This document shows, in pieces, positions 13,072 to 28,791 of a stretch of DNA of 39,274 bases. A model generated the notes under the pieces. That model worked only from the letters and a program-made list of their open reading frames with translations, was not told the origin of the DNA and searched no databases. The stretch spans positions 1-39,274 of the forward strand of contig DATDTY010000068.1 in the NCBI GenBank assembly GCA_035290625.1. The letters are read 5' to 3'. This stretch comes from Candidatus Nanoarchaeia archaeon (GTDB taxonomy: Archaea > Nanobdellota > Nanobdellia > Woesearchaeales > DATDTY01). A program made the position numbers and the translations under genes. Numbering within the stretch: position 1 is the stretch's first letter; each line of letters opens with the position of its first letter.

Positions 13072-13328
13072 CCTATGTGCTAATTGCTTTTTTTATTATT
13101 CTTTTTTGCAGAAATCGTAATGTCTTTCAATGGCTATCTCTTTTTCGTATCTCTCTTTCGTTGATTTTGTTATCATTGGATTTCTTATGATTTTCTTATT
13201 AGTTTATTATTATTTTTTAATGTTGTTTAACCTTTTTAAGTCTCTGGCGCCTTATTGCTCAATGATGCTTTCTATTTCTTTTGATCATTCGGTTTTAATT
13301 ATTTTTTAATTGATGGAGTGTGATTATG

Positions 13329-13501
13329 GAGGTTGGTGCGAAATCCTCGCAATGCTCGGGTTGCCATCGAGTTCGCACATGGCATATATGTCTGTGATAA
13401 TCGACATTCGTCCCGGATGGAGCATCCCCTCGAAGTCGATGCTTATTCATTAGCGATGTTGCTCACAAAATGATGGCAACCTTCAATTTCGCACCAACCT
13501 C
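13329..13501. mobile_element. 173-bp MITE-like structured element (family copy 1) with 16-bp terminal inverted repeats and a 9-bp flanking direct repeat
   Basis: gaggttggtgcgaaat (13329-13344) / atttcgcaccaacctc (13486-13501) is a perfect inverted repeat. gtgattatg lies directly outside both ends (13320-13328, 13502-13510). Inner stem ggttgccatc/gatggcaacc. Confidence 0.8.
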
Positions 13502-13544
13502 GTGATTATGAATACTATTATAAATGAGATTCGATTAGAAAACA

Positions 13545-14009
13545 ATGATGAAATACATTCTTTTACTGGGCCTCCTGTTTTTGGCAGCCTGCTCCTCATC
13601 AATCGACCCGTCATTGAAATTCCAGCTCCTGGAGGCTGCGGATTCCCTGCCAGACGCCCAGATCCTTCAAATCCTTGTCGCTGAGCAGAGCAGGTTTGAG
13701 GAATGCAGCACAGCCATCCATGCGGCATACCAGAGCAGAGGGAAGGAGCTAAGCAGGGAGCTGTGCGGAGGAGTTATCAGAAAGGAGATAGTGGAGGAAG
13801 ACAAAGATACGTATCGGGTCGAGTTCCATGTCGATTACCCTTCCTGCAGTGAGAGTGTGATTCCCATGGCAGCGCTTATGGATCTGGAAACTGAGGATGT
13901 CCAGGTGGTGTGGGCAGCAGGGCAGCGGCCTGATCCTGAGTATGTGCAAAGAGTCCAAGAACGGCTGCAGATAAGCGATTGCGAGAAGTTTGCTGAGCAG
14001 ATTACGTGA
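13545..14009 (+). CDS. Putative lipoprotein
   Basis: MMKYILLLGLLFLAAC-SSS lipobox-like signal; several Cys in the mature part. Confidence 0.75.
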   Translation: MMKYILLLGLLFLAACSSSIDPSLKFQLLEAADSLPDAQILQILVAEQSRFEECSTAIHAAYQSRGKELSRELCGGVIRKEIVEEDKDTYRVEFHVDYPSCSESVIPMAALMDLETEDVQVVWAAGQRPDPEYVQRVQERLQISDCEKFAEQIT

Positions 14010-14262
14010 GAAAATCCTGCTCTCTCTGCAGGTATTCTTCCTTCGAGATGCTTCCCGTGATATACTGGACCTGGAGCTTTTTAAGAGGGTCGTCTAATGC
14101 TGCGGGGTTTATCACGATGGCTGTTGGAGGCTCTGCCACTTCCTCAATGTTTATCTTGTCCACATAGGCTTTGCCCCAGTTCATTGTGACTGCCCCAATG
14201 CCGAGCGCGAAGACTAGCAGGAGGAAGGTGGCAACCAATGGGGTGAGGCCTTTCTTGTTCAT
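14002..14262 (-). CDS. Small class III signal peptide (type IV pilin/archaellin-like) protein with C-terminal SHOCT-like motif
   Basis: MNKKG|LTPLVATFLLLVFALGIG fits the prepilin cleavage pattern; DPLKKLQVQYITGSISKEEYLQ is SHOCT-like. Confidence 0.8.
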   Translation of the reverse strand: MNKKGLTPLVATFLLLVFALGIGAVTMNWGKAYVDKINIEEVAEPPTAIVINPAALDDPLKKLQVQYITGSISKEEYLQREQDFLT

Positions 14263-14564
14263 TTTCTAAGCTTCGACAGATACTCCTTCTGGAGGAGCAG
14301 GAGATAGATGAAAAGAGTGATGATGACCATCTCAAGCAGGGGAAAGACTACTGCAGGAACATCAATAATCTTTGCAATATCGAGCACAGTGATGATTTCT
14401 TCAAATATGAATATGACGATGGTTGCAAAGAGGTATTTCCAGGGAAGGAGGTAGGTGTTTTTTGCAGAACGGAACATATACCCGAACAGGATCAGGACAA
14501 TAATAACAAGGCCAAGATTATAGTAAGGGGCTGTAAGGCCGAGGGCGTCTGCAAAGCTGGTCAT
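14259..14564 (-). CDS. Small multi-pass membrane protein
   Basis: About three hydrophobic helices, PWKYL motif, 4-nt overlaps with both neighbours. Confidence 0.8.
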   Translation of the reverse strand: MTSFADALGLTAPYYNLGLVIIVLILFGYMFRSAKNTYLLPWKYLFATIVIFIFEEIITVLDIAKIIDVPAVVFPLLEMVIITLFIYLLLLQKEYLSKLRK

Positions 14565-14887
14565 TTCTTCCTCTTTTTGCCGCGTTTTCCGGCCTGCATT
14601 TCGTAGGTGTTAAGGACAATCTGGAACACCAGGGCTGCAATGACAAAGCCAAGCATAAAGGTAGGGTTGATGTGTGTAAGATAAGGAGAGCTGTAGACGC
14701 GAAACGCGCGAAACGCTCCAAGAACCTGCTGGAGCGCGAAAAGCACCAAAGCTACGATGAGGAATTTCCATGGCCTGAGGAACCGCTGATTGCGCGAGGC
14801 CTGAAACAAGGAGACTGCGATCATGCCGGCAACAACAGAAAGCAGGAGATTTGCAATTTTCAGGACGCCTTCAAGCTGCTCAACCAT
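14561..14887 (-). CDS. Small multi-pass membrane protein, probable paralog of 14259-14564
   Basis: About three hydrophobic helices, PWKFL motif at the equivalent position, GAGGTG RBS upstream. Confidence 0.8.
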   Translation of the reverse strand: MVEQLEGVLKIANLLLSVVAGMIAVSLFQASRNQRFLRPWKFLIVALVLFALQQVLGAFRAFRVYSSPYLTHINPTFMLGFVIAALVFQIVLNTYEMQAGKRGKKRKK

Positions 14888-14973
14888 TACACACCTCTTT
14901 TTGCCATGGCTTTTGGCGGGAGAGTATAAAAAGGTTGCGATGAGGTGATGTAAACTTGTTAACTTCTCGCTCT

Positions 14974-15131
14974 GGCTTTTTGCAGGGGCTTATCAGGGAT
15001 GCCGCCGAGTTCGCTTCCAGTTTCCTTTGTTCATATCGACATTCCCCGGGTTGGACGACCCCCTTGTCGATGCGCTTCTTTTTTGCTGCAAAGCTCACAA
15101 AAAGGCGGCACCCTTCCCCCTGCAAAAAGCC
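14974..15131. other. 158-bp structured element (family copy 2)
   Basis: 15-bp perfect inverted repeat ggctttttgcagggg/cccctgcaaaaagcc, inner stem gggatgccgcc/ggcggcaccc. Shares gagttcgc, atcgacattc, gtcgatgc and gctcacaaaa with copy 1. Confidence 0.8.
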
Positions 15132-15197
15132 TTGAGGCACTTGGAAACTTTACCTGATGCAAAAGATTTAAATAGCGGATTTCCCAAAAGAAGAAGC

Positions 15198-15809
15198 ATG
15201 CTGAAGCATAAGTATGAGGGAAAAGATCAGGTTGTTGTTGCCAATTGGAGGCTGAAATACAAGGATTACCACCATCTGAAGAATCTCTACACCACAATGC
15301 ACGAATGGCTTGTCGAGGAAGGATGGGCTTCAAGAAGCGACCCGGATTTTCCTGAGGATTACTTTGTGATGCGCGAAAAGCCCCATGAAGGGGGGAATGA
15401 GGTGTGGTGGACTGTCAAGAAGACTCCGGTTGACAAGGGAGGGCAAAACTCCTATTACCAGTGGGTCATGGATATCAATGTTCATGTCATCCTGCTGAAG
15501 GATGTAGAGGTTATCCACGAAGGCCAGAAGTTTAAGACCAACTGGGGAGAGCCTGAGATCAAGGCTGAGGCAAGGCTTATCATGGACAAGGATGATGTAT
15601 GGAAGAAGCATCCTTTGCTTAAATATTTCAATACGATCGTGCATAAGAGGATTTTGCTGGAGAAGTTTCAAGCGCAGGAGCTTGAGCTCTATAGGGAGTG
15701 CTATCGGTTCCAGGAGGCAATCAAGACCTGGCTTCAGATGAAAACATGGCTGCCTGAGCCTGAGCTTGGCAAGTTCTGGCCAGAGAAAGGCCTTGGAAGC
15801 GTGCAGTAG
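15198..15809 (+). CDS. Conserved hypothetical protein, tandem paralog 1 of 3
   Basis: Start moved to ATG 15198 behind TATA tttaaata (~15167). Pattern LKY...LYxxMHEWL...W..KK...Y...DVEV..EGQKFKTNWG...IKTWL is shared with the next two ORFs. Confidence 0.85.
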   Translation: MLKHKYEGKDQVVVANWRLKYKDYHHLKNLYTTMHEWLVEEGWASRSDPDFPEDYFVMREKPHEGGNEVWWTVKKTPVDKGGQNSYYQWVMDINVHVILLKDVEVIHEGQKFKTNWGEPEIKAEARLIMDKDDVWKKHPLLKYFNTIVHKRILLEKFQAQELELYRECYRFQEAIKTWLQMKTWLPEPELGKFWPEKGLGSVQ

Positions 15810-15866
15810 TACAGTTGAGGAATATCCGGCGATAGTTTTATAAACGCTCTGGGCTCTGAAGCGATC

Positions 15867-16412
15867 ATGGGTCCGCTTACAAAAGTTCCAGCTCCTACCT
15901 TGGTCATTAAGTATGAAGGGATATTTGATTTCGAAGGGCTGTACAAGACACTCGTAAGCTGGTTTATAGACCAGGGATACCGGTTTGAGGAGCTGAGCCT
16001 CAAGCATAAGGTGCCAAGCCTGGCTGGAACTGAACTGGAGTATATCTGGTTCGCATGGAGGAGGCATAATGAGTATACAAAATTCTGCGTTGACATGATA
16101 TTCAAGCTCTATGATGCAAAAGACCTTGATGTTATCAAGGATGGAAAGAAAAAGCGGCTTACAAAGGCGAGAATCCTGTGCGAGTTTCACGGGTATCTTG
16201 AGCTGGACTATTCCAAGCGGTTTGGAGGAAACAAATTTCTGCAGGGCTTGAATAAGTTTCTGCAGTACCAGATCCTCATGAAGCCGATGGAAGGGGTCAT
16301 CGGAAGCATGTGGTGGGATGAACTGTACTACAGGACATTGAAGCTTCATGCTGTGATAAAGGAGTACCTTGCTCTGGAAGCAAAAGGGAATGCCTATTTT
16401 GATATGTGGTGA
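15867..16412 (+). CDS. Conserved hypothetical protein, tandem paralog 2 of 3
   Basis: IKYEGIFDFEGLYKTLVSWF...KDGKKKRLTKA...LELDY...IKEYL; TATA ttttataa ~25 nt upstream. Confidence 0.85.
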   Translation: MGPLTKVPAPTLVIKYEGIFDFEGLYKTLVSWFIDQGYRFEELSLKHKVPSLAGTELEYIWFAWRRHNEYTKFCVDMIFKLYDAKDLDVIKDGKKKRLTKARILCEFHGYLELDYSKRFGGNKFLQGLNKFLQYQILMKPMEGVIGSMWWDELYYRTLKLHAVIKEYLALEAKGNAYFDMW

Positions 16413-16414
16413 AG

Positions 16415-16960
16415 ATGGTAGAAAGAGAGACAGTCATTGACAAGCTTCGCTTGACGTATGAAGGGTTGTTTGTTGCTACAGACCTCTATCAGATGATTGA
16501 TAACTGGTTCAGGCAGAAGGCGTATGATAAGAGGGAGAATAAGAATATCGAGAAGGTCACCCCTGATGGAAAATACATAGAAATCGAGCTTGAGCCCTGG
16601 AAGAAGATTACAGACTACGCCAGGATCGTGATTAAGATCCGGCTTATCATGAATGATGTCAAGGAGATAGAGATGGAGAAGGACGGGCTCAAGGTGAGGA
16701 TGAACCAGGGCAAGGTGCATGTCGTCATGGATTCATATCTTGAGACTGATTATGAGAACCGCTGGGAGGGGTCTCCTGTCTTTTATTTCATACGGGTTAT
16801 TTTTGACAAGTTTATTTTTAAGCCGCTGACTGGAGGATGGAAGAGCGAGGTTGTGCATGACACCAACCACCTGTACGGCCAGATCAGGTCGTTCCTGAAC
16901 CTGTATAAGTTCTCTACTGAAACCTTCACAGCTCCGCGGCCGCAGTATAATGCGCCGTAA
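16415..16960 (+). CDS. Conserved hypothetical protein, tandem paralog 3 of 3
   Basis: LTYEGLFVATDLYQMIDNWF...KDGLKVRMNQG...LETDYENRW...IRSFL; GGTGA RBS before ATG 16415. Confidence 0.85.
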   Translation: MVERETVIDKLRLTYEGLFVATDLYQMIDNWFRQKAYDKRENKNIEKVTPDGKYIEIELEPWKKITDYARIVIKIRLIMNDVKEIEMEKDGLKVRMNQGKVHVVMDSYLETDYENRWEGSPVFYFIRVIFDKFIFKPLTGGWKSEVVHDTNHLYGQIRSFLNLYKFSTETFTAPRPQYNAP

Positions 16961-17003
16961 TGTTTTTAAATGAGGTTCCTTTCTTTGGGAATAACGTTTG
17001 AGC

Positions 17004-17088
17004 GCCTCCGTAGCATAGTAGCTATTGCATCTGACTTGTATATACTAAAGGAATCAGAAGGTCGCGAGTGCAATTCTCGCCGGAGGCT
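17004..17088 (+). tRNA. tRNA-Thr(UGU) with 12-nt intron at canonical 37/38 (17041-17052)
   Basis: Acceptor GCCTCCG/CGGAGGC, D arm GCAT/TTGC, anticodon stem TCTGA/TCAGA with loop CT-TGT-A|intron|A, T arm GCGAG-TGCAATT-CTCGC; no encoded CCA. Confidence 0.92.
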
Positions 17089-17369
17089 TAATTATGCACC
17101 TTTTTGTTGTCCCTATGCTCTTTAAAGTCCCTTGCAAGGGAATTAAAGCTTCTTTGCATGTTTCTGATGTCGTGTTTATTGCCAGTTGAAGTTCTGAGCA
17201 GGGCTCCTGTTAATCCTATATTGAATATCACCAGCGACAAGATTATGTCCTCAATTGCCCATGAGCCTCCTGCCAATGCTCTTAGTATCTGATATGCAAT
17301 GTAAATCCCTAATAGGGCCAATACAATATACAAAGATAATTCCAGCCTATCTCGTTTATTTTTGTGCAT
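17088..17369 (-). CDS. Small two-helix membrane protein with C-terminal coiled coil
   Basis: 93-aa ORF, two hydrophobic segments, amphipathic tail; AT-rich context. Confidence 0.65.
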   Translation of the reverse strand: MHKNKRDRLELSLYIVLALLGIYIAYQILRALAGGSWAIEDIILSLVIFNIGLTGALLRTSTGNKHDIRNMQRSFNSLARDFKEHRDNKKVHN

Positions 17370-17511
17370 GCTTATCCGCCTAACCTTTTTATCAAGAGTA
17401 TTGTTAAAAGGATTATTAAGAGAATTATTACAAAATAAAGAAATTTAATCTGGCCTTTTTTCATCTTATTGAGGAAAAGAGCGGGCTATTTAACTGTTGT
17501 GGTGGAGAAGA

Positions 17512-18075
17512 TTAGCCCCAATAGCTCTCTGATTTAGCCAACAAGTCCTTTAAGAATCTCTTTCCGGTCTCTGTCTTGAATTTTGGGAGGTTCCTTCCTT
17601 TGAAATACTCAAGATACTTGAGGCTGTTCTCCTTATCAAAATTTGGAGGTATGTGTTCCCAGTCTATCTTAGCGAGGCCGTCTGCCTCAAGGACCAATTG
17701 TGCGTTATGGCTGTCCAGCCTGTCTTTTTTATAATGATGGCCGATTAGAGTTGTGATCTCTTTTACTTCTGCTTCAGGGTATCCGAGCTTTTCCAGTATT
17801 GGCTTCGCAAGTTTTGCTCCGATTTCATCGTGGGATTGCTTGCTTTTCATGAGATCATCAAAGGTGTAGCCTTTTTTGAGCTTTGGATAGCCGATGTCAT
17901 GGAGGTACATGGTTGAGACAAGAATGCGTTCGTCTCCGCCTTCAGCATCGATAAGCTCTCTCATCCAGTGAACGGTTAGAAGGGTGTGGGGGATATCCCA
18001 ATCAGGTTTTCCGTCCTTGAGGTAGGCTACTGCTTCAGATTTCAGCTTTTCTTCTGTTTCTGCATCTAATCTCAT
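17512..18075 (-). CDS. HD-domain (HDIG) phosphohydrolase
   Basis: H...YLHDIG...H...HH...EADGL metal-binding pattern. Confidence 0.9.
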   Translation of the reverse strand: MRLDAETEEKLKSEAVAYLKDGKPDWDIPHTLLTVHWMRELIDAEGGDERILVSTMYLHDIGYPKLKKGYTFDDLMKSKQSHDEIGAKLAKPILEKLGYPEAEVKEITTLIGHHYKKDRLDSHNAQLVLEADGLAKIDWEHIPPNFDKENSLKYLEYFKGRNLPKFKTETGKRFLKDLLAKSESYWG

Positions 18076-18284
18076 TATTTCGGAGGTGATTCGCTAACAA
18101 TAATTCTTAACTTTGGTTCAACTTTCGGATCAAGCCGCAAGTTCCTAAGCTCATAGCTCTTTATGCCCATCTTCTCTGCGTATACCTTTGCAGCCTGCTC
18201 TGACCTGAAGGTCTTGGGCCTCTTCTTTTTCGAGCCCTTGTGAGTCCCCCGGAGCCTGCAGCGCTTCATAAGACCACTTGCCAT
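18075..18284 (-). CDS. Small basic hypothetical protein
   Basis: RPKTFRSEQAAKVYAEKMGIKSY; ATG 18284 follows a TATA-like tttaaa; stop overlaps the next ATG (TAATG). Confidence 0.7.
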   Translation of the reverse strand: MASGLMKRCRLRGTHKGSKKKRPKTFRSEQAAKVYAEKMGIKSYELRNLRLDPKVEPKLRIIVSESPPK

Positions 18285-18394
18285 GCTAAACGGGGCTTCT
18301 CTGGCTCTTTTAAAGGTTTTGTTTTTTGACGGCGCATGGCACTTGTGAAGCAGCATCCAACAATTTTATATACTTCCGGCAGCTGGAGAAGGAT

Positions 18395-19486: not shown

Positions 19487-19517
19487 GTTTAAATAGGATT
19501 GCACACTTTCTGCAGCC

Positions 19518-19982
19518 ATGACAGACATCCAGAAGGCCTATGAGGGGCTGAGGAAGAGGCATCCTGAGCTGCCACTCTTCTCAGAAGTTGATTCGTTGTT
19601 TGAGATCTCTAACATGGAGAAGGAGAGATTTCTGCTCAGGTCAATCCGCCGGTCTATCCTCGAGGAGATCGAATATCTGCTGCACAGCATGGAGCCGGTT
19701 TTCCAGCCTGAGAACTCTGTTGCAGGGATGCACGAGTGCAGATTTTTGCAGGAGGATGAGAAGCAGCGTTTTTTTGACCTCTACAGAAAACTTGCAGCAC
19801 TGCATCGGAAAGGGATTGCTGCTGCGCTGAGGTATCAGGAAGATGAAGAGGCTGCATTTATCGCATCAGTATGCCGGGTGTGGAAGCCGCTGGCTGCAGA
19901 TGTCGCCACCTACTTGGCAAAGATTGCTGGCGTATGGGAGAGAGAATCGGAATCTGAAGAAAAAGCAGGGTATTTTGGATGA
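19518..19982 (+). CDS. Hypothetical helical protein
   Basis: 154-aa ORF, TATA tttaaata upstream, ATGA overlap with adk. Confidence 0.8.
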   Translation: MTDIQKAYEGLRKRHPELPLFSEVDSLFEISNMEKERFLLRSIRRSILEEIEYLLHSMEPVFQPENSVAGMHECRFLQEDEKQRFFDLYRKLAALHRKGIAAALRYQEDEEAAFIASVCRVWKPLAADVATYLAKIAGVWERESESEEKAGYFG

Positions 19983-20605: not shown

Positions 20606-20689
20606 GGGGAGCGAAGTGCTATCTTGCAAACGAATTGGGTTTTTCTGAGACAGGAAGGTATGTTCTGGATACGTTGTTGAGATAATCTT

Positions 20690-21828: not shown

Positions 21829-21830
21829 TT

Positions 21831-21870
21831 TGTTGATAGTTGTCAACAGATGGTTGATAGGATATATAAA
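21831..21870 (-). promoter_or_regulatory. TATA box and probable autoregulatory operator of the MNT-HEPN pair
   Basis: Inverted repeat tgttga-tagttg-tcaaca (21831-21848), second gttgatag (21853-21860), TATA TTTATATA on the minus strand (21863-21870). Confidence 0.6.
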
Positions 21871-21885
21871 CCTTCCTATTTTGAA

Positions 21886-22947
21886 TTAAGAAAAAAGGTA
21901 TCTAATAAGCACGGTTGCATAAGCTCCTTTTGGCAGGGAGAATTCAAGTTTTACGGTTTCTTTTGAATCATGCAGTATCTTGAAGCCTGTACAGGTTTCG
22001 AATGCGTTTCTTTCCGTGCCTTCAGAGCTGAGCTCAGGGAGCTGGGGGATGATGAAGTCTCTTGTGGTTAGGTTTTCTTTTTTTAGGATGGGATTAATGA
22101 GACTTTCATTGGTGCCAAAGCCAATCAAGGGCAGTTTTTTATTCTTTACATTTTTTGATTTTGATTTGTTTTCTATTGATCTGCATTTTTTTGGCATATG
22201 TTCTATTAATTTTTCTTTTTTTGGTTTATTCTCCATTGATTTAGGTTTAATTGAGGCTTCTTCTGTTGGATCCCTTTTAATTGAGTCTTTTAATAATTCA
22301 TTAAATAGCTTAGACTGGTAGGCATGGATGAATAGTCTTAATATTTTTGAGGGCATCTTCCTTAGGCAGCCTATTGCATCTGAGGGCTGGGTTTCAAAGT
22401 GCTCTCTCATCTTCTTTTCATAGCTTCCTTTGTGCTTCAGGAGAAGAGTTACCGCTTTGCTAAACTCTTGTTTTACTATGCACTTACCTATCTCTGCGTT
22501 GTCATTTGAGAATCTTTGCTCTCCGAATACGTTCGGGAAGACTATTGTTGCGTTTCTTGTATTTTTAAGGAATACTTTGTGCTCTTCAGGGGTTATCTCC
22601 CTTATGGTAATCTCAAACTGGTTTCCTTCGTGGTCTCCTAAGGAGATGGGCTCATGTAAGGAGCCTTTGTATTCTATCTTTAGGTTAGCATCATCAATGT
22701 CTCTTGCTTTCTTTCCTTTGATCGAGATATACTGTTCGGTTCTTGCTCTTTTGTCCTTGTTTCCTGCATAGCCAAAGCTGGATTCGGGGAGATTGAGGAT
22801 CCTGGAGAGCCTTGAGATGGCTTCGGGTGTTGAACGGTTGGTCTTGGAGAGGAGGTAGATATGGTAATTTCCGCCTTTTTCCAGGATGCCCTCTATTGGA
22901 AATATCTCCTTTACGATGAAGTCTTCAGGGGATTCTTTAAGCTTCAT
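21886..22947 (-). CDS. truD: tRNA pseudouridine(13) synthase TruD
   Basis: LKESPEDFIVKE, GYAGNKDKRARTEQ, GNQFEI, NVFGEQRF, AYQSKLFN, FSLPKGAYAT. Confidence 0.96.
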   Translation of the reverse strand: MKLKESPEDFIVKEIFPIEGILEKGGNYHIYLLSKTNRSTPEAISRLSRILNLPESSFGYAGNKDKRARTEQYISIKGKKARDIDDANLKIEYKGSLHEPISLGDHEGNQFEITIREITPEEHKVFLKNTRNATIVFPNVFGEQRFSNDNAEIGKCIVKQEFSKAVTLLLKHKGSYEKKMREHFETQPSDAIGCLRKMPSKILRLFIHAYQSKLFNELLKDSIKRDPTEEASIKPKSMENKPKKEKLIEHMPKKCRSIENKSKSKNVKNKKLPLIGFGTNESLINPILKKENLTTRDFIIPQLPELSSEGTERNAFETCTGFKILHDSKETVKLEFSLPKGAYATVLIRYLFS

Positions 22948-22999
22948 AGAGCCCGGGGATAAAAAGGCTTATAAAAAGGTTGAGGCTTTGCTCTGATGT

Positions 23000-23118
23000 G
23001 CGCCTGTAGCTCAGTCTGGATACCGGAAAAACTCCAGCTTTTCGGGATTGGCCGGTAGGACAAATAGAGCGAAAGGTTCCTAACCTTTAGGTCGGGGGTT
23101 CAAATCCTCCCAGGCGCG
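23000..23118 (+). tRNA. tRNA-Arg(CCU) with 44-nt D-loop intron (23020-23063)
   Basis: Acceptor GCGCCTG/CAGGCGC, D stem GCTC/GAGC, anticodon arm AAAGG-TTCCTAA-CCTTT, T arm GGGGG-TTCAAAT-CCTCC. The intron forms a BHB (GTCT/GGAC helix, GGA and AAA bulges, TACCGG/CCGGTA). Confidence 0.95.
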
Positions 23119-23161
23119 CTTCACAGTTAATTATAAAAGCTCCGAGTTTGTAATCTATTCC

Positions 23162-24259
23162 ATGTTCTCTCCAATCTACATCAGCGAAGGGCTTCGGATG
23201 TTCAGAAGGAAGCTGCGGGTCCAGGGAAGAGGATTTAAGCAGTATCCTGGAGATGCAGCGGACATTTGCAGGCAGATCATTGAGGACTGCTGGAATGGAA
23301 GATATTTCCAGACTTCAACAGGCCACTTCTGCGAGTTCTGGGTAAGGGATTTCAGCTGGTGCTGCAGGCCATTGCTTCGGCTGGGGTATAAGGAAGAAGT
23401 CAGGAAGACATTGGAGTACGCTCTGGGGATATATTCAAGGTGTGGAAGGGTGACTACTACGATATCTCCCAGAGGCGGGCCATTTGATTTTCCTAATTTC
23501 TCTCCTGATTCTTTGGCTTCTTTGATTCTTTGCTTAAATCAGGCTAAAGCTAAATCATTGATTTCTGGATACAAGGATTTTCTCAATAAAAAGATTTCTG
23601 AGTATGAGGAGAAGGTTTTGGACAGGGAAACAGGGCTTGTTAGACAAGGAATTCCTTTCTCTTCCATAAAGGATCATGCCAGGAGGAGCTCTTCATGCTA
23701 TAATAATGTCATGCTTGCGATGCTTGCAAGGGAGATTAAGAAAACTTCATTGGATAACCCCTTCAGGGGATTTAATTTTAAGAAGAGGGTAAAGGAGGAG
23801 TTCTGGAATGGGGACTATTTTTATGATGATATGGAGAAACTGCCTGTTGTGACGGGGGATTCGAATGTTTTTCCATTCTGGACAGGAATTTTTACTGAAA
23901 AGGAGATGATGAGACGTGCATTCAGGGCAATTGAAGAAGTAGGTTTGGATAAGCCTTTTCCTCTACGATATACCTGTAAGAGGTACAAGAGGCAGAGAAT
24001 GCTTATCTATGAAATTCTTGCACGGAATTATGAGAGGACGACAATATGGAATCATATAGGGCTTATGTATGTTTCTTTGCTGAAACAGGTTGATAGGAAG
24101 AGACACAGGAAGAGCATTGAGGATTATAAGGACGTGATAGGGAAACATAAAACATTCCTTGAGGTGTATAATCCTGCAGGGAAGCCTTATAAATCACTGG
24201 TTTACACCTGTGATGAAGGGATACTGTGGAGCAGTATGCTTCTGGAGATGTTGAGATGA
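23162..24259 (+). CDS. Glycoside hydrolase-like protein, (alpha/alpha)6 six-hairpin type
   Basis: FWVRDFS, aromatic-rich helices, FWNGDYFYD, TIW, FLEVY resemble amylo-alpha-1,6-glucosidase/invertase-like folds; exact family uncertain. Confidence 0.7.
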   Translation: MFSPIYISEGLRMFRRKLRVQGRGFKQYPGDAADICRQIIEDCWNGRYFQTSTGHFCEFWVRDFSWCCRPLLRLGYKEEVRKTLEYALGIYSRCGRVTTTISPRGGPFDFPNFSPDSLASLILCLNQAKAKSLISGYKDFLNKKISEYEEKVLDRETGLVRQGIPFSSIKDHARRSSSCYNNVMLAMLAREIKKTSLDNPFRGFNFKKRVKEEFWNGDYFYDDMEKLPVVTGDSNVFPFWTGIFTEKEMMRRAFRAIEEVGLDKPFPLRYTCKRYKRQRMLIYEILARNYERTTIWNHIGLMYVSLLKQVDRKRHRKSIEDYKDVIGKHKTFLEVYNPAGKPYKSLVYTCDEGILWSSMLLEMLR

Positions 24260-24960
24260 TGTTTTCTATCATTATTCCAACCTTGAATGAAGAGAGATAC
24301 CTTCCAAGGCTGTTGGGATCAATCAGGAACCAAAGATTCAGGGATTACGAGATCATTGTAGCTGATGCACATTCCAAAGATAAGACTAGGGATATTGCAA
24401 GGAGATTTGGATGCAGAATTGTGAATGGAGGGATTTCTTCCTTAGGAAGGAATAACGGAGCAAAGATTGCAAAGGGAGAGTATTTCCTCTTCCTTGATGC
24501 TGACGGGATGATTGCTGACAAAAGGTTTCTGGAGAAACTTGTAGATGTTATTAACAGAAGAAATGTGGAAGTAGGGTCTTGCTTGGCATTGCCTATTCAT
24601 GGGAGCATACTCGATAAGATTCTCCACATTAGCGCAAATGCCTATATGAGGATTGCGCAATGGACCAAGCCACTTGTTTGGGGACCCTGCATGTTTAGCT
24701 CAAAACAGCTGTTCGATAAGGTCAAGGGGTTCAACCAGAATCTGAGATTTGGAGAGGATCTTGATTTCGGCTATCGGGCTGCGAAACATGGTAAGTATAG
24801 GGCGATTCCTATATATTTTGGGGTTTCTCTGAGGAAGTTTAAGAAGGATGGGTATCTACGAACTATCTCTAACTATATCAATATAGGAATCCGTTATTCT
24901 CTTTTCACCAAGGTGGGCCAAAACCGCGTGAAGTATAGGTTTTATTCAGAGAAGAAGTAA
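24256..24960 (+). CDS. Glycosyltransferase family 2
   Basis: SIIIPTLNEE, EIIVADAHSKDKT, GRNNGA, FLDAD, GEDLD; ATGA overlap with the upstream gene. Confidence 0.95.
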   Translation: MMFSIIIPTLNEERYLPRLLGSIRNQRFRDYEIIVADAHSKDKTRDIARRFGCRIVNGGISSLGRNNGAKIAKGEYFLFLDADGMIADKRFLEKLVDVINRRNVEVGSCLALPIHGSILDKILHISANAYMRIAQWTKPLVWGPCMFSSKQLFDKVKGFNQNLRFGEDLDFGYRAAKHGKYRAIPIYFGVSLRKFKKDGYLRTISNYINIGIRYSLFTKVGQNRVKYRFYSEKK

Positions 24961-24966
24961 CGTGGT

Positions 24967-25806
24967 TCATCTGAGGAGCACAGAGTCAAATAGACGGTAC
25001 ATTGTTCGCAGAATTAGGTGGGTAAGTATTTTCTGTTTGTTGCAGCCCTTTCCATAACCAAAGTTTTTGAGCGGCCTTAACATTGAGTATCTTCCTGCAT
25101 TATGCACTATTGGGATTTTCTGGCCATTCTGGAGGTAGAGAACGCCCTCTTTTATTGTAAATTTAGCATCTTTAGCATCTAATGTGCTGATGATGAAGTT
25201 ATATTTAGGATTAAGCTCTTTGAATCCGTCTCTTTGGAGGACGTAATTAATAATTATCTGATCAGGTCCGAATCTGCCTTTGTCTTCTATGAGAGACACA
25301 ATTTCATTGCAGAGACCTATGAACTTGTATGATGGGCCAAGAAGAACTCCTGCATTGACTATCTTTTTTCCATGGAGGCACTCTTTCATTTTACTTGATA
25401 CCTTCCTGCTAAAGCAGGTTTTAAGGAAATAGGATTTGTACAGCTTGTTTGTGCCTTCATATGCTGCTCTGAATGCCCCCGTATCTTCTGAAAAAATGGA
25501 GCTTATGCCATCCTGAAAGATAATATCCCCTCCGTCAACAGACAATACCTGGTCGTACTCTTTTCTCTTGAGAATAATCGCCATTTCCCGCCACCTGATA
25601 TTGACTATGGCGCCGTCCTTCTTTGCCTTATGCACGATAACATTATTACGTTTCAACTCAGAAACTTGTATTTCAGTCAACCCATAATCTAAAACGATGA
25701 CATCTGTGTTTGTCAAGTCAACATTATCTTTTAGGGATCTCAACCAGTGTGTTACCAGAAAATCTCCGTATTTCTCATCAGACGATGTAAAGATAACATT
25801 TTTCAT
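24967..25806 (-). CDS. GT-A-like glycosyltransferase (nucleotide-diphospho-sugar transferase-like)
   Basis: VDGGDIIFQ DxD-like motif, NAGVLLG, DQIIIN, IVHNAG. Confidence 0.7.
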   Translation of the reverse strand: MKNVIFTSSDEKYGDFLVTHWLRSLKDNVDLTNTDVIVLDYGLTEIQVSELKRNNVIVHKAKKDGAIVNIRWREMAIILKRKEYDQVLSVDGGDIIFQDGISSIFSEDTGAFRAAYEGTNKLYKSYFLKTCFSRKVSSKMKECLHGKKIVNAGVLLGPSYKFIGLCNEIVSLIEDKGRFGPDQIIINYVLQRDGFKELNPKYNFIISTLDAKDAKFTIKEGVLYLQNGQKIPIVHNAGRYSMLRPLKNFGYGKGCNKQKILTHLILRTMYRLFDSVLLR

Positions 25807-25978
25807 AGCAATACCTTATCTTTTACGCTATTCTCCTCAGGTTTCGAGATCAAATAAAAATCCCAACAGCTGCAAGCGACGAGGCATCATAAACAAATGA
25901 TTTTTTTATGATTTTCGATTGATGGCTAATGCATGCCTTCCTATACGTGTTTTCCATAAATGTTAAGACTTTCACTCT

Positions 25979-27112
25979 TTATTCTTTGTATATTTTTTCC
26001 AGCTGGCGTATTGTGTTCTCTATCGCGTACTTCTTCACTGCAATTAATGAGCTTTTCTCCATTTTCTTCCTCAGCTTTGTACCTTTGAGTATTCTTGTGA
26101 TTCGGTCTGCCAGCATTCGGGGGTTGTTGGACGGGGCTATGAAGCCGTTGGAATCGTCTTTAACAATATCAGGAATTGCTCCTGCATTCACCCCCACGAT
26201 GGGCAGACCGCAGGCCATTGCCTCGAGAACAACAAGTCCTTCAGTCTCTATGGGAGACGCTGTTGCAAAGAGGGCTGCTGAGGAGTAGAGCTTTGGCAGT
26301 TTGTTGTGGGGAACCGATCCTAGGAACTTAATGTTCTTTACGTACTTGGCAAAGTCTTGGAGATACTTTTCCTGAGGCCCTGATCCTGCGATGACGAGCG
26401 TTGTATCTGAGGAGGTTTCCTGGATAGTCTTGAATGCTTCTATAAGGATATCAATTCTCTTTTCATAGCTGAGCCTGCCCACATGGAGTATTGTTCTTCT
26501 CTTTTTGTTTACCTTTCTCGGATAGAACAATGTTGTGTCCACTCCATTGGAGACTACACGGATTGGAGCAGTGATTCCGTGTCGTTTGAGCTCTTTCTTC
26601 ATCGCATTGGAAGGTGTTATTACTGTGTTGCACCTGTTGTAGAAGTGTTTTGTGTAGTTCCACGTAATTGATTTGGCAAATGGAAATTTGGACAGCTTTG
26701 CGTTTTTTATCGGCATCTTTACATGGTCAAGAAATTCTGGAAGAAGCGTATTATATGTCCCAATGACAGGTATGCCTTTGATTTTTCCGTATGCGAGACC
26801 CTCCCAGCCGAGGAAGGATGGCATGTGGCAATGTATGATGTCTGGCTTGAAGGCTGCAAGCACTTTAAGGCTTTGTGTTGAGGGCACGCCTATTGGGAAA
26901 TCAGGATATCTGAGGATGTCAATGCTTGGGAGATATGTGATCCTCATTTTAGGGATGGTTGTTCTTTTCTTTGCTGTTGTGAATATCATTACTTCATGGT
27001 CTTTTTTAGCGAGATACTTTGCTGCATTGAGAATTGATGTAACCACCCCATTCTGCGAAGGCAGAAATGTGTCTGTGAAGAATGCTATCCTCAGTTTAGG
27101 AGCTTTTGCAAT
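25979..27112 (-). CDS. Glycosyltransferase family 4 (GT-B); start codon non-canonical or uncertain
   Basis: LRIAFFTDTFLPSQNGVVTS lies upstream of the ORF-track start; VGRLSYEK and ETEGLVVLEAMACG motifs present. Confidence 0.92.
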   Translation of the reverse strand: MAKAPKLRIAFFTDTFLPSQNGVVTSILNAAKYLAKKDHEVMIFTTAKKRTTIPKMRITYLPSIDILRYPDFPIGVPSTQSLKVLAAFKPDIIHCHMPSFLGWEGLAYGKIKGIPVIGTYNTLLPEFLDHVKMPIKNAKLSKFPFAKSITWNYTKHFYNRCNTVITPSNAMKKELKRHGITAPIRVVSNGVDTTLFYPRKVNKKRRTILHVGRLSYEKRIDILIEAFKTIQETSSDTTLVIAGSGPQEKYLQDFAKYVKNIKFLGSVPHNKLPKLYSSAALFATASPIETEGLVVLEAMACGLPIVGVNAGAIPDIVKDDSNGFIAPSNNPRMLADRITRILKGTKLRKKMEKSSLIAVKKYAIENTIRQLEKIYKE

Positions 27113-28518
27113 ATCTCGCTCACCTTCTTCCCTTCAACCTTTCCCCTAAATCTTTTCATTGCAATGCCCATCAAAGCTCCCAGAGAGGCTCCTTTGTTCT
27201 CATCGATGATGAGCTTGATTGCCTTTTCTATCTCGGCATCGGATACTGTTTTAAATTCAGTTAGAGAGTATTTCTCATTTCTTAATTTTTTTGTGAGGAT
27301 GTCTATAATCGCCTCTTTTGGAATCTGCTTTTTTTCGTAGAAGTTGAGGACTTCCTTGAAATCCGCATGCGTCAGCTTTTTTGTGTCAAGGCCGAATCGC
27401 GACTTTATTTCTTTTGGAGTCGCTATTAAGGTGTTGGCTATGAATAAGGGCTCCAATGATTTGAATTCTTTGAAATAGGACGGAAGGCTGATTTTTCTTT
27501 TTACTGCTTCTTCTGCAAATTCTTTCGGTATCCTGTAGGTTTCCTGGAGCTGTTTTATTTCATCTGATAAGAGATTTGGAAGCTTTGCCTCAAGCATCGA
27601 TTCCGGTATCTTTATAGGCACAACATCTGTCTCTGGATATAATCTTGCGGCTCCCGGCAACGGCCTAAGGAAAGAGGTGGTAAAGCCAGGCTCTGCTTTT
27701 CTCACTTCGTTCTTTAGTGTTTTCCCCTGTTTTATTTCATTGAGCTGCCTCTGGATCTCCTGCTCGATAACTCTAGGGATAGACTTCAATTCCTGGAAGC
27801 CTTTTATCTCCGTCCTTGCGCCGCCTTTTATTGATACATTGACATCCTGCCTGATGGAGCCGATGCCGCGCTTCATCGAGCCAACGCTTCGGAGCATCAT
27901 CCCAATTATTGAGGCTGCTTCTTTCACATGCTCAGGATCCTGCAATGAGGCATCGGTTGATATCTCAAGAAGCGCAACCCCTAAGCGGTCAAGGCGGTAG
28001 GTGACTGATTCTTCGTTTTGGTCAATTTTTTTTGCTGCCTCTTCCTCCAGGAGGAGGGTCGGTATCGCTACGTTCCCTTTCGCGGTTTCAACATACCCAT
28101 TCCTTCCAATTAAGGCTGTGCGCTGGAAGCCTGTCGTGTTTGAGCCGTCAATGACTATTTTCCTCATGACCTGGATTTCGTCAACAATGGACATGTGAAG
28201 AAGGCGGGCCACGTTTACTGCGATTTCAAGCGCCTTCTGGTTTATGGTTTTTGGGGGTTCTTCATCAATTTCTATAAGACAAGAGCTTGTTGGCGCTGCT
28301 TCATAGACGTAATACTTCTTTTTTGCTTCTTCGTGCCTGGCAGCAATGTCAATTTCTCCTGTCTCTCCAACAACTGCCCGCAAATACCTTTTTATGCGAA
28401 TTGAGGCCTTGTTTGGGTCATTGACTAAAGAGGGGCAGTCGCAGAAGAGCTTTTTTGTGTCAAGCTGCTGGTGGACTTCCAGGCCTGCTTTGAAGCCGAG
28501 GTCTTTGTAATTGAGCAT
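27091..28518 (-). CDS. gatE: Glu-tRNA(Gln) amidotransferase subunit E
   Basis: GLEVHQQLDTKKLFC, RKIVIDGSNTTGFQRT, RLDRLG, RGIGSIRQDVNVS, RPLPGAARLYPETD. Confidence 0.97.
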   Translation of the reverse strand: MLNYKDLGFKAGLEVHQQLDTKKLFCDCPSLVNDPNKASIRIKRYLRAVVGETGEIDIAARHEEAKKKYYVYEAAPTSSCLIEIDEEPPKTINQKALEIAVNVARLLHMSIVDEIQVMRKIVIDGSNTTGFQRTALIGRNGYVETAKGNVAIPTLLLEEEAAKKIDQNEESVTYRLDRLGVALLEISTDASLQDPEHVKEAASIIGMMLRSVGSMKRGIGSIRQDVNVSIKGGARTEIKGFQELKSIPRVIEQEIQRQLNEIKQGKTLKNEVRKAEPGFTTSFLRPLPGAARLYPETDVVPIKIPESMLEAKLPNLLSDEIKQLQETYRIPKEFAEEAVKRKISLPSYFKEFKSLEPLFIANTLIATPKEIKSRFGLDTKKLTHADFKEVLNFYEKKQIPKEAIIDILTKKLRNEKYSLTEFKTVSDAEIEKAIKLIIDENKGASLGALMGIAMKRFRGKVEGKKVSEILQKLLN

Positions 28519-28571
28519 AGAGGTAAAAGGTGGCGGTAGGTTTATAAGGTTTTTTATGCGAATTTTGCTTC

Positions 28572-28791
28572 TCGGAGCAGAGTAAAGAGATTATTGTTTA
28601 GCGATATTCCAAACTAGCTCATACCATGCCTGTGCATTTTTGGTCGCTCCTTCGGAGCAGTTCGCCTTGTGCGTATGTGAGCGAGGAGCGACATATCCTC
28701 CGATGGGACGACCCCCTTGTCGCTGTGACGTCTTTTGATAAAGAAGGCTCACGGATGATGTTGCCTTCATTTTCAGAGCCCAATTCTCCGA
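28572..28791. other. Structured element (family copy 3, expanded/divergent)
   Basis: agttcgc (28659-28665), agcgaca/tgtcgct stem, 17-mer ggacgacccccttgtcg (28706-28722) identical to 15053-15069, gctcac (28747-28752). Outer boundaries are approximate (tcggag/ctccga). Confidence 0.65.

What the first reader, a model, noticed from the sequence alone, without database searches (positions are those of the whole stretch)
13329..28791. Dispersed family of three intergenic structured elements: conserved core, covarying hairpin, unrelated closing stems
Seen: segments 13329-13501, 14974-15131 and ~28572-28791 share the same ordered motifs: (G)AGTTCGC, variable arm, A[T/G]CGACAT...GGA...CCCCT...GTCG[A/C]T, variable arm, GCTCAC, inner stem, TTC(A), outer stem. 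Copies 1 and 2 share gagttcgc, atcgacattc, gtcgatgc and gctcacaaaa; copies 2 and 3 share the exact 17-mer ggacgacccccttgtcg. The central stem shows a compensatory change (atcgac/gtcgat vs agcgac/gtcgct). The outer stems of copies 1 and 2 (16 and 15 perfect bp) are unrelated in sequence yet fully paired. Inference: selection acts on a folded single-stranded form, so this is either a multi-junction ncRNA/ribozyme-like motif or a non-autonomous ssDNA/RNA mobile element. I cannot assign it to any family I know. Three copies in ~15 kb suggest many genome-wide.
Basis: partly seen in the sequence, partly recalled or inferred. Interest (0 to 1): 0.9.

Follow-up and report, generated by a model that had tools for sequence, protein, structure and literature searches.

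The report
Hairpin-shaped mini-transposons beside archaeal promoters
The three look-alike elements are copies of a miniature non-coding transposon, present about 130 times in this small archaeal genome, that keeps a hairpin-rod shape and sits just upstream of gene promoters; the kind is known, but these two habits are unusual.

Summary
The shared motifs and the perfect outer stems of copies 1 and 2 are real. Copy 3 is a 5'-truncated copy without a closing stem.

The three are members of a family of about 131-140 copies in this 1.37-Mb genome. They are MITEs:
- The outer stem is a terminal inverted repeat of the form GGCT-N4-T[G/C]AAA.
- 37 of 94 full copies carry an abutting direct repeat of 7 nt or more (mostly 8-9 bp), against 2 of 465 in controls. 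Copy 1 has GTGATTATG on both sides.
- A 967-bp IS5-family insertion sequence with matching ends (GGCTCGATTGCAAGTT) lies in the same genome, one full copy plus five contig-end fragments. It is the likely mobiliser.

Two features go beyond an ordinary MITE:
- The ~165-nt rod of five helices covaries strongly. About 93% of cells are paired and 37-38 of 39 pairs show changes on both sides, within this genome and across 18 others.
- The family occurs in 36 of 150 same-order genomes sampled.

Pairing is almost purely Watson-Crick with no G·U excess, which points to DNA rather than an RNA gene.

MITEs and the IS both sit about 43-47 nt upstream of the start codon of a gene read away from them, next to its BRE/TATA.

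No Rfam match was found, and no RNA data exist. Verdict: a new variant of a known kind, of moderate interest.

The parts
13329..13501 (+). Copy 1: complete 173-bp MITE (subfamily with ends GAGGTTGGTGCGAAAT)
   Evidence: nhmmer and CM hits. It is 96% identical over exactly these bounds to a copy on contig C15. RNA fold -71.3 kcal/mol, z -6.43.
13320..13328 (.). Left target-site duplication of copy 1 (GTGATTATG)
   Evidence: Read directly. Found by the flank comparison.
13502..13510 (.). Right target-site duplication of copy 1 (GTGATTATG)
13329..13344 (+). Copy 1, 5' terminal inverted repeat (5' arm of helix P1). It pairs with 13486-13501.
   Evidence: 16 perfect pairs. P1 covaries across the family.
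13486..13501 (+). Copy 1, 3' terminal inverted repeat (3' arm of helix P1)
13358..13481 (+). Copy 1 core. Helix P2 is 13358-13368 with 13472-13481. GAGTTCGC lies at 13369-13376. Helix P4 is ATCGAC 13400-13405 with GTCGAT 13436-13441. The apical hairpin follows, and GCTCAC lies at 13461-13466.
   Evidence: Sequence, folds and family structure.
13518..13525 (+). TATA-like box (TTATAAAT) of the gene that starts at 13545. It lies 16 nt beyond the end of copy 1, and the start codon lies 43 nt beyond that end.
   Evidence: row C68 13329-13501: right ORF '+', gap 43, TATA at 16.
14974..15131 (+). Copy 2: complete 158-bp core of the subfamily with ends GGCTTTTTGCAGGGG. No target-site duplication lies at these bounds.
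   Evidence: CM hit 14973-15132, 76.1 bits. RNA fold -69.1 kcal/mol, z -6.62. 93% identical to copies on C24 and C80, including about 30 nt of flank on each side.
14948..15154 (+). Approximate longer repeated unit that encloses copy 2. Its ends resemble GTTAAGTAAAG...CTTTACTTAAC in the copies on C24 and C80. The bounds in the window are uncertain because the ends have diverged.
   Evidence: Alignment of C24, C68 and C80. On C59 the core is inverted relative to these outer ends. The outer ends resemble the terminal repeat GGTTAAGTCAAC of the IS6-family IS on C49:1-915.
28626..28780 (+). Copy 3: 5'-truncated copy of the subfamily with a 42-nt insert before AGTTCGC. It lacks the 5' terminal repeat and the 5' arm of P2.
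   Evidence: The CM matches only 28659-28757, model positions 41-137. Compared with the C55 and C7 copies. z -1.44 for 28566-28795. The 3' end (CAGAGCC, ending at 28780) lies 46 nt before the ATG at 28827.
28797..28805 (+). TATA-like box (CTTAAATAT) of the nucleotidyltransferase gene 28827-29609, just beyond the 3' end of copy 3
   Evidence: Sequence. Pfam NTP_transf_2 on 28827-29609.

Best explanation

Shown:
- The family has about 131-140 copies, roughly 1.6% of this 1.37-Mb genome by my arithmetic.
- Each unit is about 155-175 bp. Variants reach 200-300 bp through hairpin-forming inserts.
- The outer stem is the pair of terminal inverted repeats.
- Insertion duplicated 8-9 bp of target DNA.
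- A 967-bp IS5-family insertion sequence in the same genome has near-identical terminal repeats.
- MITEs and the IS lie next to core promoters. The element end is typically 14-17 nt from a TATA-like box and 43-47 nt from the start codon of a gene read away from the element.
- The ~165-nt interior is unrelated to the interior of the IS. It keeps an unbranched rod of five helices through many compensatory changes, with a few conserved unpaired blocks.
- The family occurs in a quarter of the sampled genomes of the same order. Public records holding the apical motif bear the labels Woesearchaeota, Nanoarchaeota or Nanoarchaeia, or 'uncultured Methanosarcinales'.

Inferred:
- The IS transposase moves the MITEs in trans by DDE-type cut-and-paste.
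- The fold is needed for propagation of the element, not for a host RNA function.
- It is read at the DNA level, as a hairpin or cruciform that brings together the two ends of an element too short to loop.
- The promoter position reflects targeting by the transposase more than survival of harmless insertions.
For: Family and sharp ends:
- A regex for the ordered motifs finds 31 copies.
- nhmmer gives 149 hits in about 140 loci, 102 of them full length. CM R1 gives 131 non-redundant loci.
- Pairs 96-99% identical end exactly at the stems.

Target-site duplications:
- With CM-defined ends, 37 of 94 full copies have a perfect direct repeat of at least 7 nt abutting the ends, against 2 of 465 with mismatched flanks.
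- The repeat is 8 bp for GGTCGC-type ends and 9 bp for GGCT-type ends.
- In other genomes 9 of 22 copies have one.

Parent IS:
- tblastn with related transposases finds C49:19067-19903, with 61-84% identity to the five query transposases over 279-280 aa.
- The IS is C49:19040-20006, 967 bp, with ends GGCTCGATTGCAAGTT.
- Fragments 99-100% identical end five contigs.
- NCBIfam IS5-family model NF033579 scores 98.9 bits with E 3.6e-28.
- A 957-bp relative in genome G015 has a perfect 16-bp terminal repeat and the 9-bp duplication GGAGAACTA.
- Of the 38 metagenome loci that encode relatives, both ends were found by pattern in 26. These are IS of about 0.96 kb with ends GGCT-N3-4-TT[GC][CA]AAGTT.
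- IS903B is printed with IR GGCTTTGTTGAATAAATC and a 9-bp direct repeat (PMC10569121, passages read).

Fold:
- Within the genome, 93.0% of 4450 cells are paired. 38 of 39 pairs have changes on both sides. 914 cells changed on both sides against 255 in shuffles. Slid controls pair at 35-49%.
- Across 22 elements from 18 genomes, 92.7% are paired, 37 of 39 pairs changed on both sides, and slid controls pair at 29-48%.
- 760 of 835 cells are Watson-Crick, with 14 G.T and 29 A.C. Both DNA strands of copy 1 fold equally well.
- Copies with an intact duplication have 94-95% Watson-Crick pairs, and copies without have 85-90%. This fits decay after insertion and selection on the active lineages.
- IS left and right ends disagree at positions 5-7 in 13 of 27 IS, whereas the MITE ends pair there in over 90% of copies.

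Promoter position:
- 62 of 93 copies have a TATA-like hexamer 14-27 nt from one end.
- Per flank this is 43 of 112, against 6.8% of 6000 random intergenic flanks.
- An outward ORF starts 38-52 nt from the end in 29 of 112 flanks, against 5.6% in the control, with a peak at 42-47 nt.
- In tandem gene pairs the distance to the promoter-side start is near constant, while the distance to the upstream stop varies from 2 to 144 nt.
- The same spacing holds in other genomes and for the IS itself.
Against: - No transposition event was seen. Contigs of four DNA runs show no empty site for the three window copies.
- The IS ends and the MITE ends are similar but not identical, at about 14 of 16-17 positions with small gaps, compared by eye. 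At least nine variants of the MITE ends coexist, so mobilisation by this one transposase is unproven.
- The transposase gets no Pfam hit at E 0.01 or better and lies below NCBIfam's curated cut-off of 140 bits.
- The complete IS copy on C49 has no recognisable target duplication.
- The alignments behind the pair counts were fitted to the structure by the covariance model, and copies share ancestry. Both inflate the counts (caveats stated).
- Within this genome G.T exceeds A.C in helices P1-P4 (110 against 69, and 24 against 6 in P4). This is a weak hint of strand bias.
- The promoter position could be what survives purifying selection in a genome that is about 87% coding, rather than targeting.
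- The conserved unpaired blocks have no explanation.
Confidence: 0.85

Rival explanations
1. The fold is selected at the RNA level. Read-through transcripts from either side fold into the rod, which then acts as a terminator, an insulator or a processing signal between closely packed genes. The MITE would be tolerated or kept for that service to the host. This reading accepts that the element is a MITE and differs only in why the fold is kept.
For: Strong covariation with conserved loops. The position lies between an upstream gene end and the next promoter. An RNA that must fold when read in either direction would also need Watson-Crick-only pairs. GTAA closes the apical hairpin in 13 of 22 elements from other genomes. 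Paired columns change less than unpaired ones within young clusters (3.2% against 8.1%).
Against: Pairing decays in copies that have lost their duplication (94-95% down to 85-90%), so single loci seem weakly constrained or unconstrained. No T-run longer than 4 is conserved (my reading of the alignments). The conserved loops are strand-asymmetric, yet insertion orientation is random (24 left, 32 right, 6 both).
Confidence: 0.2
2. The elements are genes for a stand-alone structured non-coding RNA or a self-cleaving ribozyme family.
For: Five covarying helices, conserved unpaired blocks and a conserved size of 155-168 nt across genomes. A TATA-like box lies upstream of each window copy, read by eye.
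Against: The copies have terminal repeats plus 8-9 bp duplications and over 130 dispersed copies with sharp ends. The flanking TATA boxes lie outside the duplications, occur on either side, and with their BRE-like purine run read away from the element. G.T pairs are 1.7% of cells and rarer than A.C. No Rfam family reaches its gathering score on the elements, and the best weak overlap is 19.2 bits against a gathering score of 55.
Confidence: 0.04
3. The hairpins are moved as single-stranded DNA by a Y1 (IS200/RAYT-like) transposase, as REPINs are.
For: The genome holds Y1_Tnp matches at six places, three of them full length at 175-186 aa. Hairpin substrates with covarying stems are what such enzymes use, which is my recalled knowledge of IS200/IS605 and REPIN-RAYT systems.
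Against: From recall, Y1 transposition makes no target duplication and needs no terminal inverted repeats. Here both are present. None of the three full Y1 genes lies beside a copy, comparing the coordinates. The ends match the IS5-type IS instead.
Confidence: 0.03
4. The elements are SINE-like retroelements copied through RNA by the genome's reverse transcriptase.
For: One RVT_1 gene lies in this window (37802-38884, minus strand) beside an RT-16 RNA motif. Target-primed reverse transcription also leaves duplications, which is recalled knowledge.
Against: The duplication length is fixed by end type (8 or 9 bp). The termini are conserved as GG...CC inverted repeats. There is no A-tail. Apparent 5'-partial hits are mostly copies with 5' inserts. 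The RT is closest to group II intron maturases, below the cut-off, and is single-copy.
Confidence: 0.02

Closest known systems
IS903 group of the IS5 family, and MITEs derived from IS5-family elements
   Same: Terminal repeats begin GGCT and share TGAA/TGCAA at positions 9-13 with the IS903B repeat, printed in PMC10569121 together with a 9-bp direct repeat. The target duplication is 8-9 bp. The candidate parent is an IS of about 0.96 kb with one ORF of about 282 aa, and its only NCBIfam hit is the IS5-family model.
   Different: The transposase is distant, with no Pfam hit and a score below the NCBIfam cut-off. The MITE interior is not a deletion derivative of the IS; only the ends match. The whole interior is a covarying rod. 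The elements lie next to promoters. The host is an archaeon of the Woesearchaeota/Nanoarchaeota label group.
Palindromic bacterial repeats that fold when transcribed: Correia elements, ERIC, Rickettsia RPE (recalled, not searched here)
   Same: They are short, non-coding, high-copy and nearly palindromic, so either strand can form a long hairpin.
   Different: The features of those families are recalled only. Here the pairing is kept through many compensatory changes across genomes of one order, and the insertion point is fixed relative to BRE/TATA.
REPIN-RAYT systems (recalled)
   Same: High-copy hairpin-forming repeats whose stems are kept by selection on the mobile unit.
   Different: As recalled, REPINs have no terminal inverted repeats or target duplications and depend on a Y1 transposase. 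Here duplications and IS5-type ends are present.
Integron attC sites (recalled): recombination sites read as folded single-stranded DNA
   Same: This is an analogy of mechanism only: structure is conserved, stems covary, and a few unpaired bases are conserved.
   Different: attC sites use a tyrosine recombinase, leave no duplication and are not dispersed mobile units. No membership is claimed.
Transcription-complex-targeted integration such as yeast Ty3/Ty1 and Dictyostelium TRE (recalled)
   Same: Insertion lies at a fixed short distance upstream of a transcription start.
   Different: Those are eukaryotic retroelements at Pol III genes. Here a DDE-type IS and its MITEs lie at archaeal BRE/TATA promoters, and tethering is not shown.

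Membership tests
MITE (non-autonomous DNA transposon) | Short, with no coding capacity | tested here: met
   Units of 155-175 bp, with variants up to about 300 bp. I did not check coding capacity; the inference rests on size.
MITE (non-autonomous DNA transposon) | Terminal inverted repeats | tested here: met
   P1 has 16 pairs, paired in 92.4% of cells within the genome and 94.0% across genomes.
MITE (non-autonomous DNA transposon) | Target-site duplication of fixed length | tested here: met
   37 of 94 copies have a perfect repeat of at least 7 nt, against 2 of 465 in controls. The length is 8 or 9 bp depending on end type.
MITE (non-autonomous DNA transposon) | Many dispersed copies with sharp common bounds | tested here: met
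   131-140 loci. Identity stops at the ends.
MITE (non-autonomous DNA transposon) | An autonomous element with matching ends and the same duplication length | tested here: met
   The 967-bp IS at C49:19040-20006 plus five contig-end fragments. The G015 relative has a 9-bp duplication. The ends are similar, not identical.
MITE (non-autonomous DNA transposon) | Observed mobility (empty sites or new insertions) | tested here: inconclusive
   No joint across the three copies in contigs of 4 DNA runs. Contigs drop rare variants.
IS5 family, IS903 group (for the parent IS) | DDE transposase of the IS5 family | tested here: inconclusive
   NF033579 is the only hit at 98.9 bits, below the cut-off of 140. 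Pfam gives nothing at E 0.01 or better. The G015 relative matched PF01609 at 37.9 bits. Catalytic residues were not examined.
IS5 family, IS903 group (for the parent IS) | Ends beginning GGC and a 9-bp duplication | tested here: met
   IS903B values as printed in PMC10569121. Some copies give 8 bp.
Structured non-coding RNA gene or ribozyme | Match to a curated RNA family | tested here: not met
   Rfam 15 at gathering score: only RT-16 elsewhere in the window. At the E-value threshold only weak hits far below gathering.
Structured non-coding RNA gene or ribozyme | Covarying helices | tested here: met
Structured non-coding RNA gene or ribozyme | Strand-specific pairing signature (G.U tolerated, A.C not) | tested here: not met
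   Across genomes G.T is 14 cells and A.C 29 of 835. Within the genome G.T is 110 and A.C 69 in P1-P4.
Structured non-coding RNA gene or ribozyme | Expression as a discrete RNA | not testable with these tools
   No RNA run holds the stretch.
REPIN/RAYT or IS200/IS605-derived palindromic elements | No target duplication, and a linked Y1 transposase | tested here: not met
   Duplications are present. Y1 genes exist but not beside copies.

The most novel reading that the evidence does not exclude
The rod is itself the substrate of transposition. A 165-bp duplex is too stiff to loop. Extrusion of the near-palindrome as a cruciform, or as hairpins at a replication fork, places both element ends side by side and rebuilds a normal terminal-repeat duplex in each arm. 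An IS5-type DDE transposase, held at the upstream edge of TBP/TFB-bound promoters, then cuts and pastes a folded DNA. This would be structure-dependent, promoter-tethered DDE transposition in Archaea. It would explain the Watson-Crick-only covariation on both strands, the better matching of MITE ends than of IS ends, and the fixed distance to BRE/TATA.
Probability: 0.25. Interest if true: 0.7.

Novelty: new variant of a known kind. Interest (0 to 1): 0.45.

Why it matters
- A family of junk-sized transposons fills about 1.6% of an ultra-small archaeal genome and is spread through a whole order. This bears on how such reduced genomes tolerate mobile DNA.
- If the promoter-edge position is true targeting, it is a natural safe-harbour integration rule for an archaeal DDE transposase, and it can be tested in vitro.
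- The case is a caution for RNA discovery. Textbook covariation in five helices with conserved loops occurs here in an element whose pairing signature points to DNA, so covariation alone does not show an RNA gene.
- The copies break assemblies. Many contigs end inside one, and they mimic RNA genes in intergenic scans of these archaea.

Tried and rejected
- Rfam: gathering search of the window and E-value searches of both regions gave nothing on the elements.
- tRNA idea (permuted or split tRNA): ARAGORN finds none at the elements, and the motif order and the duplications do not fit.
- MAFFT plus RNAalifold on 22 copies recovered only P1 and fragments, because the inner helices were misaligned. 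I replaced this with a hand-drawn structure on 9 similar copies and a covariance model.
- Parent by Pfam in the own genome. PF13610 gave one IS6-type IS with other ends. PF01609 gave one IS4-like IS with other ends. PF13586, PF00872, PF01610 and PF07282 gave none. From these I first concluded that the genome had no parent. That was wrong. The IS5-type transposase has no Pfam hit and was found only by tblastn.
- A search for longer elements bounded by MITE-type ends found none.
- BLAST of one copy against 40 same-order genomes gave short weak hits in only 2. The covariance model was needed.
- RNA evidence: no RNA holder is listed for the stretch.
- Empty sites: contigs of 4 DNA runs show no joint that removes a window copy. 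Raised depth at 16478-17585 and 22572-23125 is explained by tRNA genes.
- My first reading of cUUCGg tetraloops in the insert modules was wrong. The register gives 3-nt loops.
- Viral contigs: the apical 23-mer pattern has 0 matches.
- Literature. Five full-text searches found no description of this family, of its fold or of promoter-edge insertion. The terms were: MITE + archaea + DPANN; Woesearchaeota + MITE; insertion sequence + TATA box + archaea + target site + IS5; MITEs + compensatory mutations + stem-loop + prokaryot; IS903 + target + palindromic + 9-bp. The one relevant item is a MITE census (PMC11602168, passages read) stating that a Woesearchaea genome has 105 MITEs per Mb. Its supplements were not opened.

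Full report
**What is at the coordinates**

The 17-mer shared by copies 2 and 3 lies at 15053-15069 and 28706-28722. Copy 1 (13329-13501) closes with 16 perfect pairs and copy 2 (14974-15131) with 15.

Both fold far better than shuffles as RNA (z -6.43 and -6.62). Both DNA strands of copy 1 do so as well (z -5.95 and -5.70).

The stretch given for copy 3 does not fold better than shuffles (z -1.44). Compared with complete relatives, copy 3 lacks the 5' end of the element and is a truncated copy at about 28626-28780.

**Not a known RNA**

Rfam 15 at gathering score finds only an RT-16 motif at the far end of the window. Permissive searches of both regions give only weak hits far below gathering. 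ARAGORN finds no tRNA at the elements.

**A large family**

- A regex for the ordered motifs finds 31 copies in the 1.37-Mb, 84-contig genome.
- An nhmmer profile finds 149 hits in about 140 loci, 102 of them full length.
- A covariance model built on nine similar copies with a hand-drawn five-helix structure finds 140 matches. These are 131 non-redundant loci in the 371 kb of loci that hold all the nhmmer hits.
- Many contigs end inside a copy.
- Pairs of copies 96-99% identical lose all similarity exactly at the outer stems.

**They are transposons**

Flanks carry direct repeats that abut the stems. The longest left-right repeat is 8 nt or more in 43 of 98 copies, against 22 of 294 with mismatched partners.

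With ends set by the model, 37 of 94 full copies have a perfect abutting repeat of 7 nt or more, against 2 of 465 in the control. The repeat is 8 bp for ends of type GGTCGCATTGAAAAG and 9 bp for GGCT-type ends. Copy 1 has GTGATTATG at 13320-13328 and 13502-13510.

So the 'closing stems' are terminal inverted repeats. Across subfamilies they follow one formula, GGCT-N4-T[G/C]AAA(A/T). They are not unrelated, as two copies alone suggested.

Copy 2 belongs to a subfamily without a duplication at its own ends. Its copies sit in a longer repeated unit with other ends, and on C59 the core is inverted within that unit.

**The parent**

Pfam searches of the genome gave only an IS6-type and an IS4-like IS with different ends. 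IS256, ISL3, TnpB and DDE_Tnp_1_2 families gave nothing. I first took this to mean that the genome had no parent.

In genome G015 of the same order a PF01609 match led to a 957-bp IS. It has a perfect 16-bp terminal repeat, GGCTCGTTTGCAAGTT, and the 9-bp duplication GGAGAACTA.

Its transposase has relatives of 58-86% identity (one short fragment at 100%) at 38 metagenome loci. Both ends were found by pattern in 26 of these loci, on IS of about 0.96 kb with ends GGCT-N3-4-TT[GC][CA]AAGTT.

tblastn with these proteins then found an intact gene in the window's own genome, at C49:19067-19903. It lies in a 967-bp IS (C49:19040-20006) with ends GGCTCGATTGCAAGTT. Fragments 99-100% identical end five other contigs.

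This protein has no Pfam hit at E 0.01 or better, which explains the earlier miss. Its only NCBIfam hit is the IS5-family model NF033579, at 98.9 bits and below the cut-off of 140.

IS903B is printed with IR GGCTTTGTTGAATAAATC and a 9-bp direct repeat (PMC10569121, passages). The interior of the IS shows no likeness to the MITE core.

**The fold is kept by compensatory change**

| Measure | Own genome (A4) | 22 elements, 18 other genomes (A5) |
|---|---|---|
| Cells paired | 93.0% of 4450 | 92.7% |
| Pairs with changes on both sides | 38 of 39 | 37 of 39 |
| Cells changed on both sides | 914 (shuffles: 255) | 260 (shuffles: 71) |
| Covariation score | 0.407 (shuffles: 0.127) | 0.777 (shuffles: 0.205) |
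| Paired with 3' partners slid | 35-49% | 29-48% |

In the own genome P2 is paired in 98.3% of cells, with 5-6 standard pair types per position, 3-4 of them frequent.

Both alignments were fitted to the structure, and copies share ancestry. The counts are therefore generous, though the gap to the slid controls is large.

Conserved unpaired blocks include CTCGC-NN-NGCTCG, G[GC]TCGC, the apical hairpin CCCC-GTAA-GGG followed by ACAWCCCCCTT, and GCTCAC. Insert modules in longer variants are themselves hairpins.

**Which nucleic acid folds**

- Across genomes 760 of 835 cells are Watson-Crick, 14 are G.T and 29 are A.C.
- An RNA read from one strand should tolerate G.U and not A.C. This symmetry fits DNA, or a need to fold on both strands.
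- Within the genome G.T exceeds A.C modestly in P1-P4 (110 against 69).
- Orientation relative to the neighbouring promoter is random: TATA on the left only in 24 copies, on the right only in 32, on both in 6.
- Copies with an intact duplication have 94-95% Watson-Crick pairs, and those without have 85-90%. Single loci therefore decay, and selection seems to act on the lineages that still move.
- IS left and right ends disagree at positions 5-7 in 13 of 27 IS, while MITE ends pair there in over 90% of copies. These IS are not independent of one another.

From these points I infer, but have not shown, that the fold serves mobilisation. A cruciform or hairpin would bring together the ends of an element too short to loop.

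**Promoter edge**

- 62 of 93 full copies have a TATA-like hexamer 14-27 nt from one end.
- Per flank this is 43 of 112, against 6.8% of 6000 random intergenic flanks.
- An ORF read away from the element starts 38-52 nt from the end in 29 of 112 flanks against 5.6% in the control, with 24 in the 42-47 nt bin.
- The purine run and TATA read away from the element, and the duplication abuts them.
- In tandem gene pairs the distance to the promoter-side start is near constant, while the distance to the upstream stop varies from 2 to 144 nt.
- In the window, copy 1 ends 43 nt before the ATG at 13545 and copy 3 ends 46 nt before the ATG at 28827. The outer unit around copy 2 ends about 40 nt before the ATG at 15198.
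- The same spacing is seen in other genomes and for the IS itself.

I put targeting at about two in three. The alternative is survival of harmless insertions in a genome that is about 87% coding.

**Spread**

The model matches 36 of 150 other sampled genomes of the same order. One of these, G131, is unpublished; without it the count is 35 of 149.

The apical 23-mer pattern occurs in at least 126 stretches of the species-representative genomes. All 80 listed records are titled Woesearchaeota, Nanoarchaeota or Nanoarchaeia archaeon, or 'uncultured Methanosarcinales archaeon' for third-party MAGs. I did not check these labels. The pattern has 0 matches in viral contigs.

The window's genes are archaeal housekeeping genes such as GatD/GatE-type, CDC48 and TruD.

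**Other evidence sought**

No RNA run holds the stretch. Contigs of four DNA runs show no empty site.

Earlier notes of this scan on other pieces of the same genome reach the same reading. I saw them after my own MITE, promoter and G015-IS results. They prompted the metagenome search, which I then ran myself.

**In print**

Five full-text searches found no description of this family, its fold or its promoter position. A MITE census states that a Woesearchaea genome has 105 MITEs per Mb (PMC11602168, passages). Its supplements were not opened and may list such copies.

**Verdict**

The element is a MITE family with an IS5-type parent, which is a known kind. It has two unusual and testable traits: a covarying hairpin rod conserved across an order, and insertion at the upstream edge of archaeal core promoters.

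Noticed in passing
window 39014-39181 (-) and 37802-38884 (-): An RT-16 RNA motif (RF03019, 81.4 bits) lies just upstream of the only reverse-transcriptase gene of the genome. The gene matches RVT_1, and its best NCBIfam hit is group II intron RT/maturase at 166.8 bits, below the cut-off of 300. Its role is unknown, and no link to the MITEs was found.
   Followed up: partly
window 17004-17088 (+): tRNA-Thr(TGT) with a 12-nt intron. ARAGORN's default run and Rfam at gathering score both missed it. It was found when introns were allowed.
   Followed up: yes
window 23001-23118 (+): A tRNA-like gene with acceptor, D-arm start and T-arm readable by eye. It seems to carry an insert of about 35 nt in the D-loop region, a non-canonical intron position. 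ARAGORN does not call it properly. The high metagenome depth here fits a conserved tRNA.
   Followed up: partly
window 1-8379 (+): A giant ORF of at least 2792 aa runs off the window start and has MG2 (alpha-2-macroglobulin-type) domains.
   Followed up: no
window 15330-16349 (-) versus 15198-15809 (+): Two long overlapping ORFs. The + ORF has a TATA-like box 23-32 nt upstream of its ATG at 15198 and looks like the real gene. The 339-aa minus ORF has no Pfam hit and an odd composition.
   Followed up: partly
G000 contig C49:1-915 (L001) and contig C61 (L002): A 915-bp IS6-family IS has ends GGTTAAGTCAAC (NF033587, 126.5 bits). A roughly 1.65-kb IS4-like IS has 20-bp ends. The IS6-type ends resemble the outer ends of the longer unit that encloses copy 2.
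   Followed up: partly
G000 C49:16170-16517, C46:22216-22563, C18:70-417 and three fragments: Y1 (IS200-like) transposase genes occur in three full and three partial copies, some at contig ends. This is a separate small IS family in the genome.
   Followed up: no
L028 (G026:C40), about 1438-1640: An element is flanked on both sides by a direct repeat of about 25 nt (ATTCTCTAAA.GT.AC.TTCTCTGAT) and is preceded by the end of another copy. This looks like a tandem array or an insertion into a repeated spacer.
   Followed up: no
G000 contig C59:7593-7745 versus C24, C80 and window copy 2: The same core lies in the opposite orientation within the same outer flanks. This suggests inversion between its 15-bp inverted ends or independent nested insertion.
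   Followed up: no
L121 (G015:C16) 1186-2034: The transposase of the 957-bp IS carries one in-frame TGA at codon 131. Either it is a fresh pseudogene or the codon is read through.
   Followed up: no
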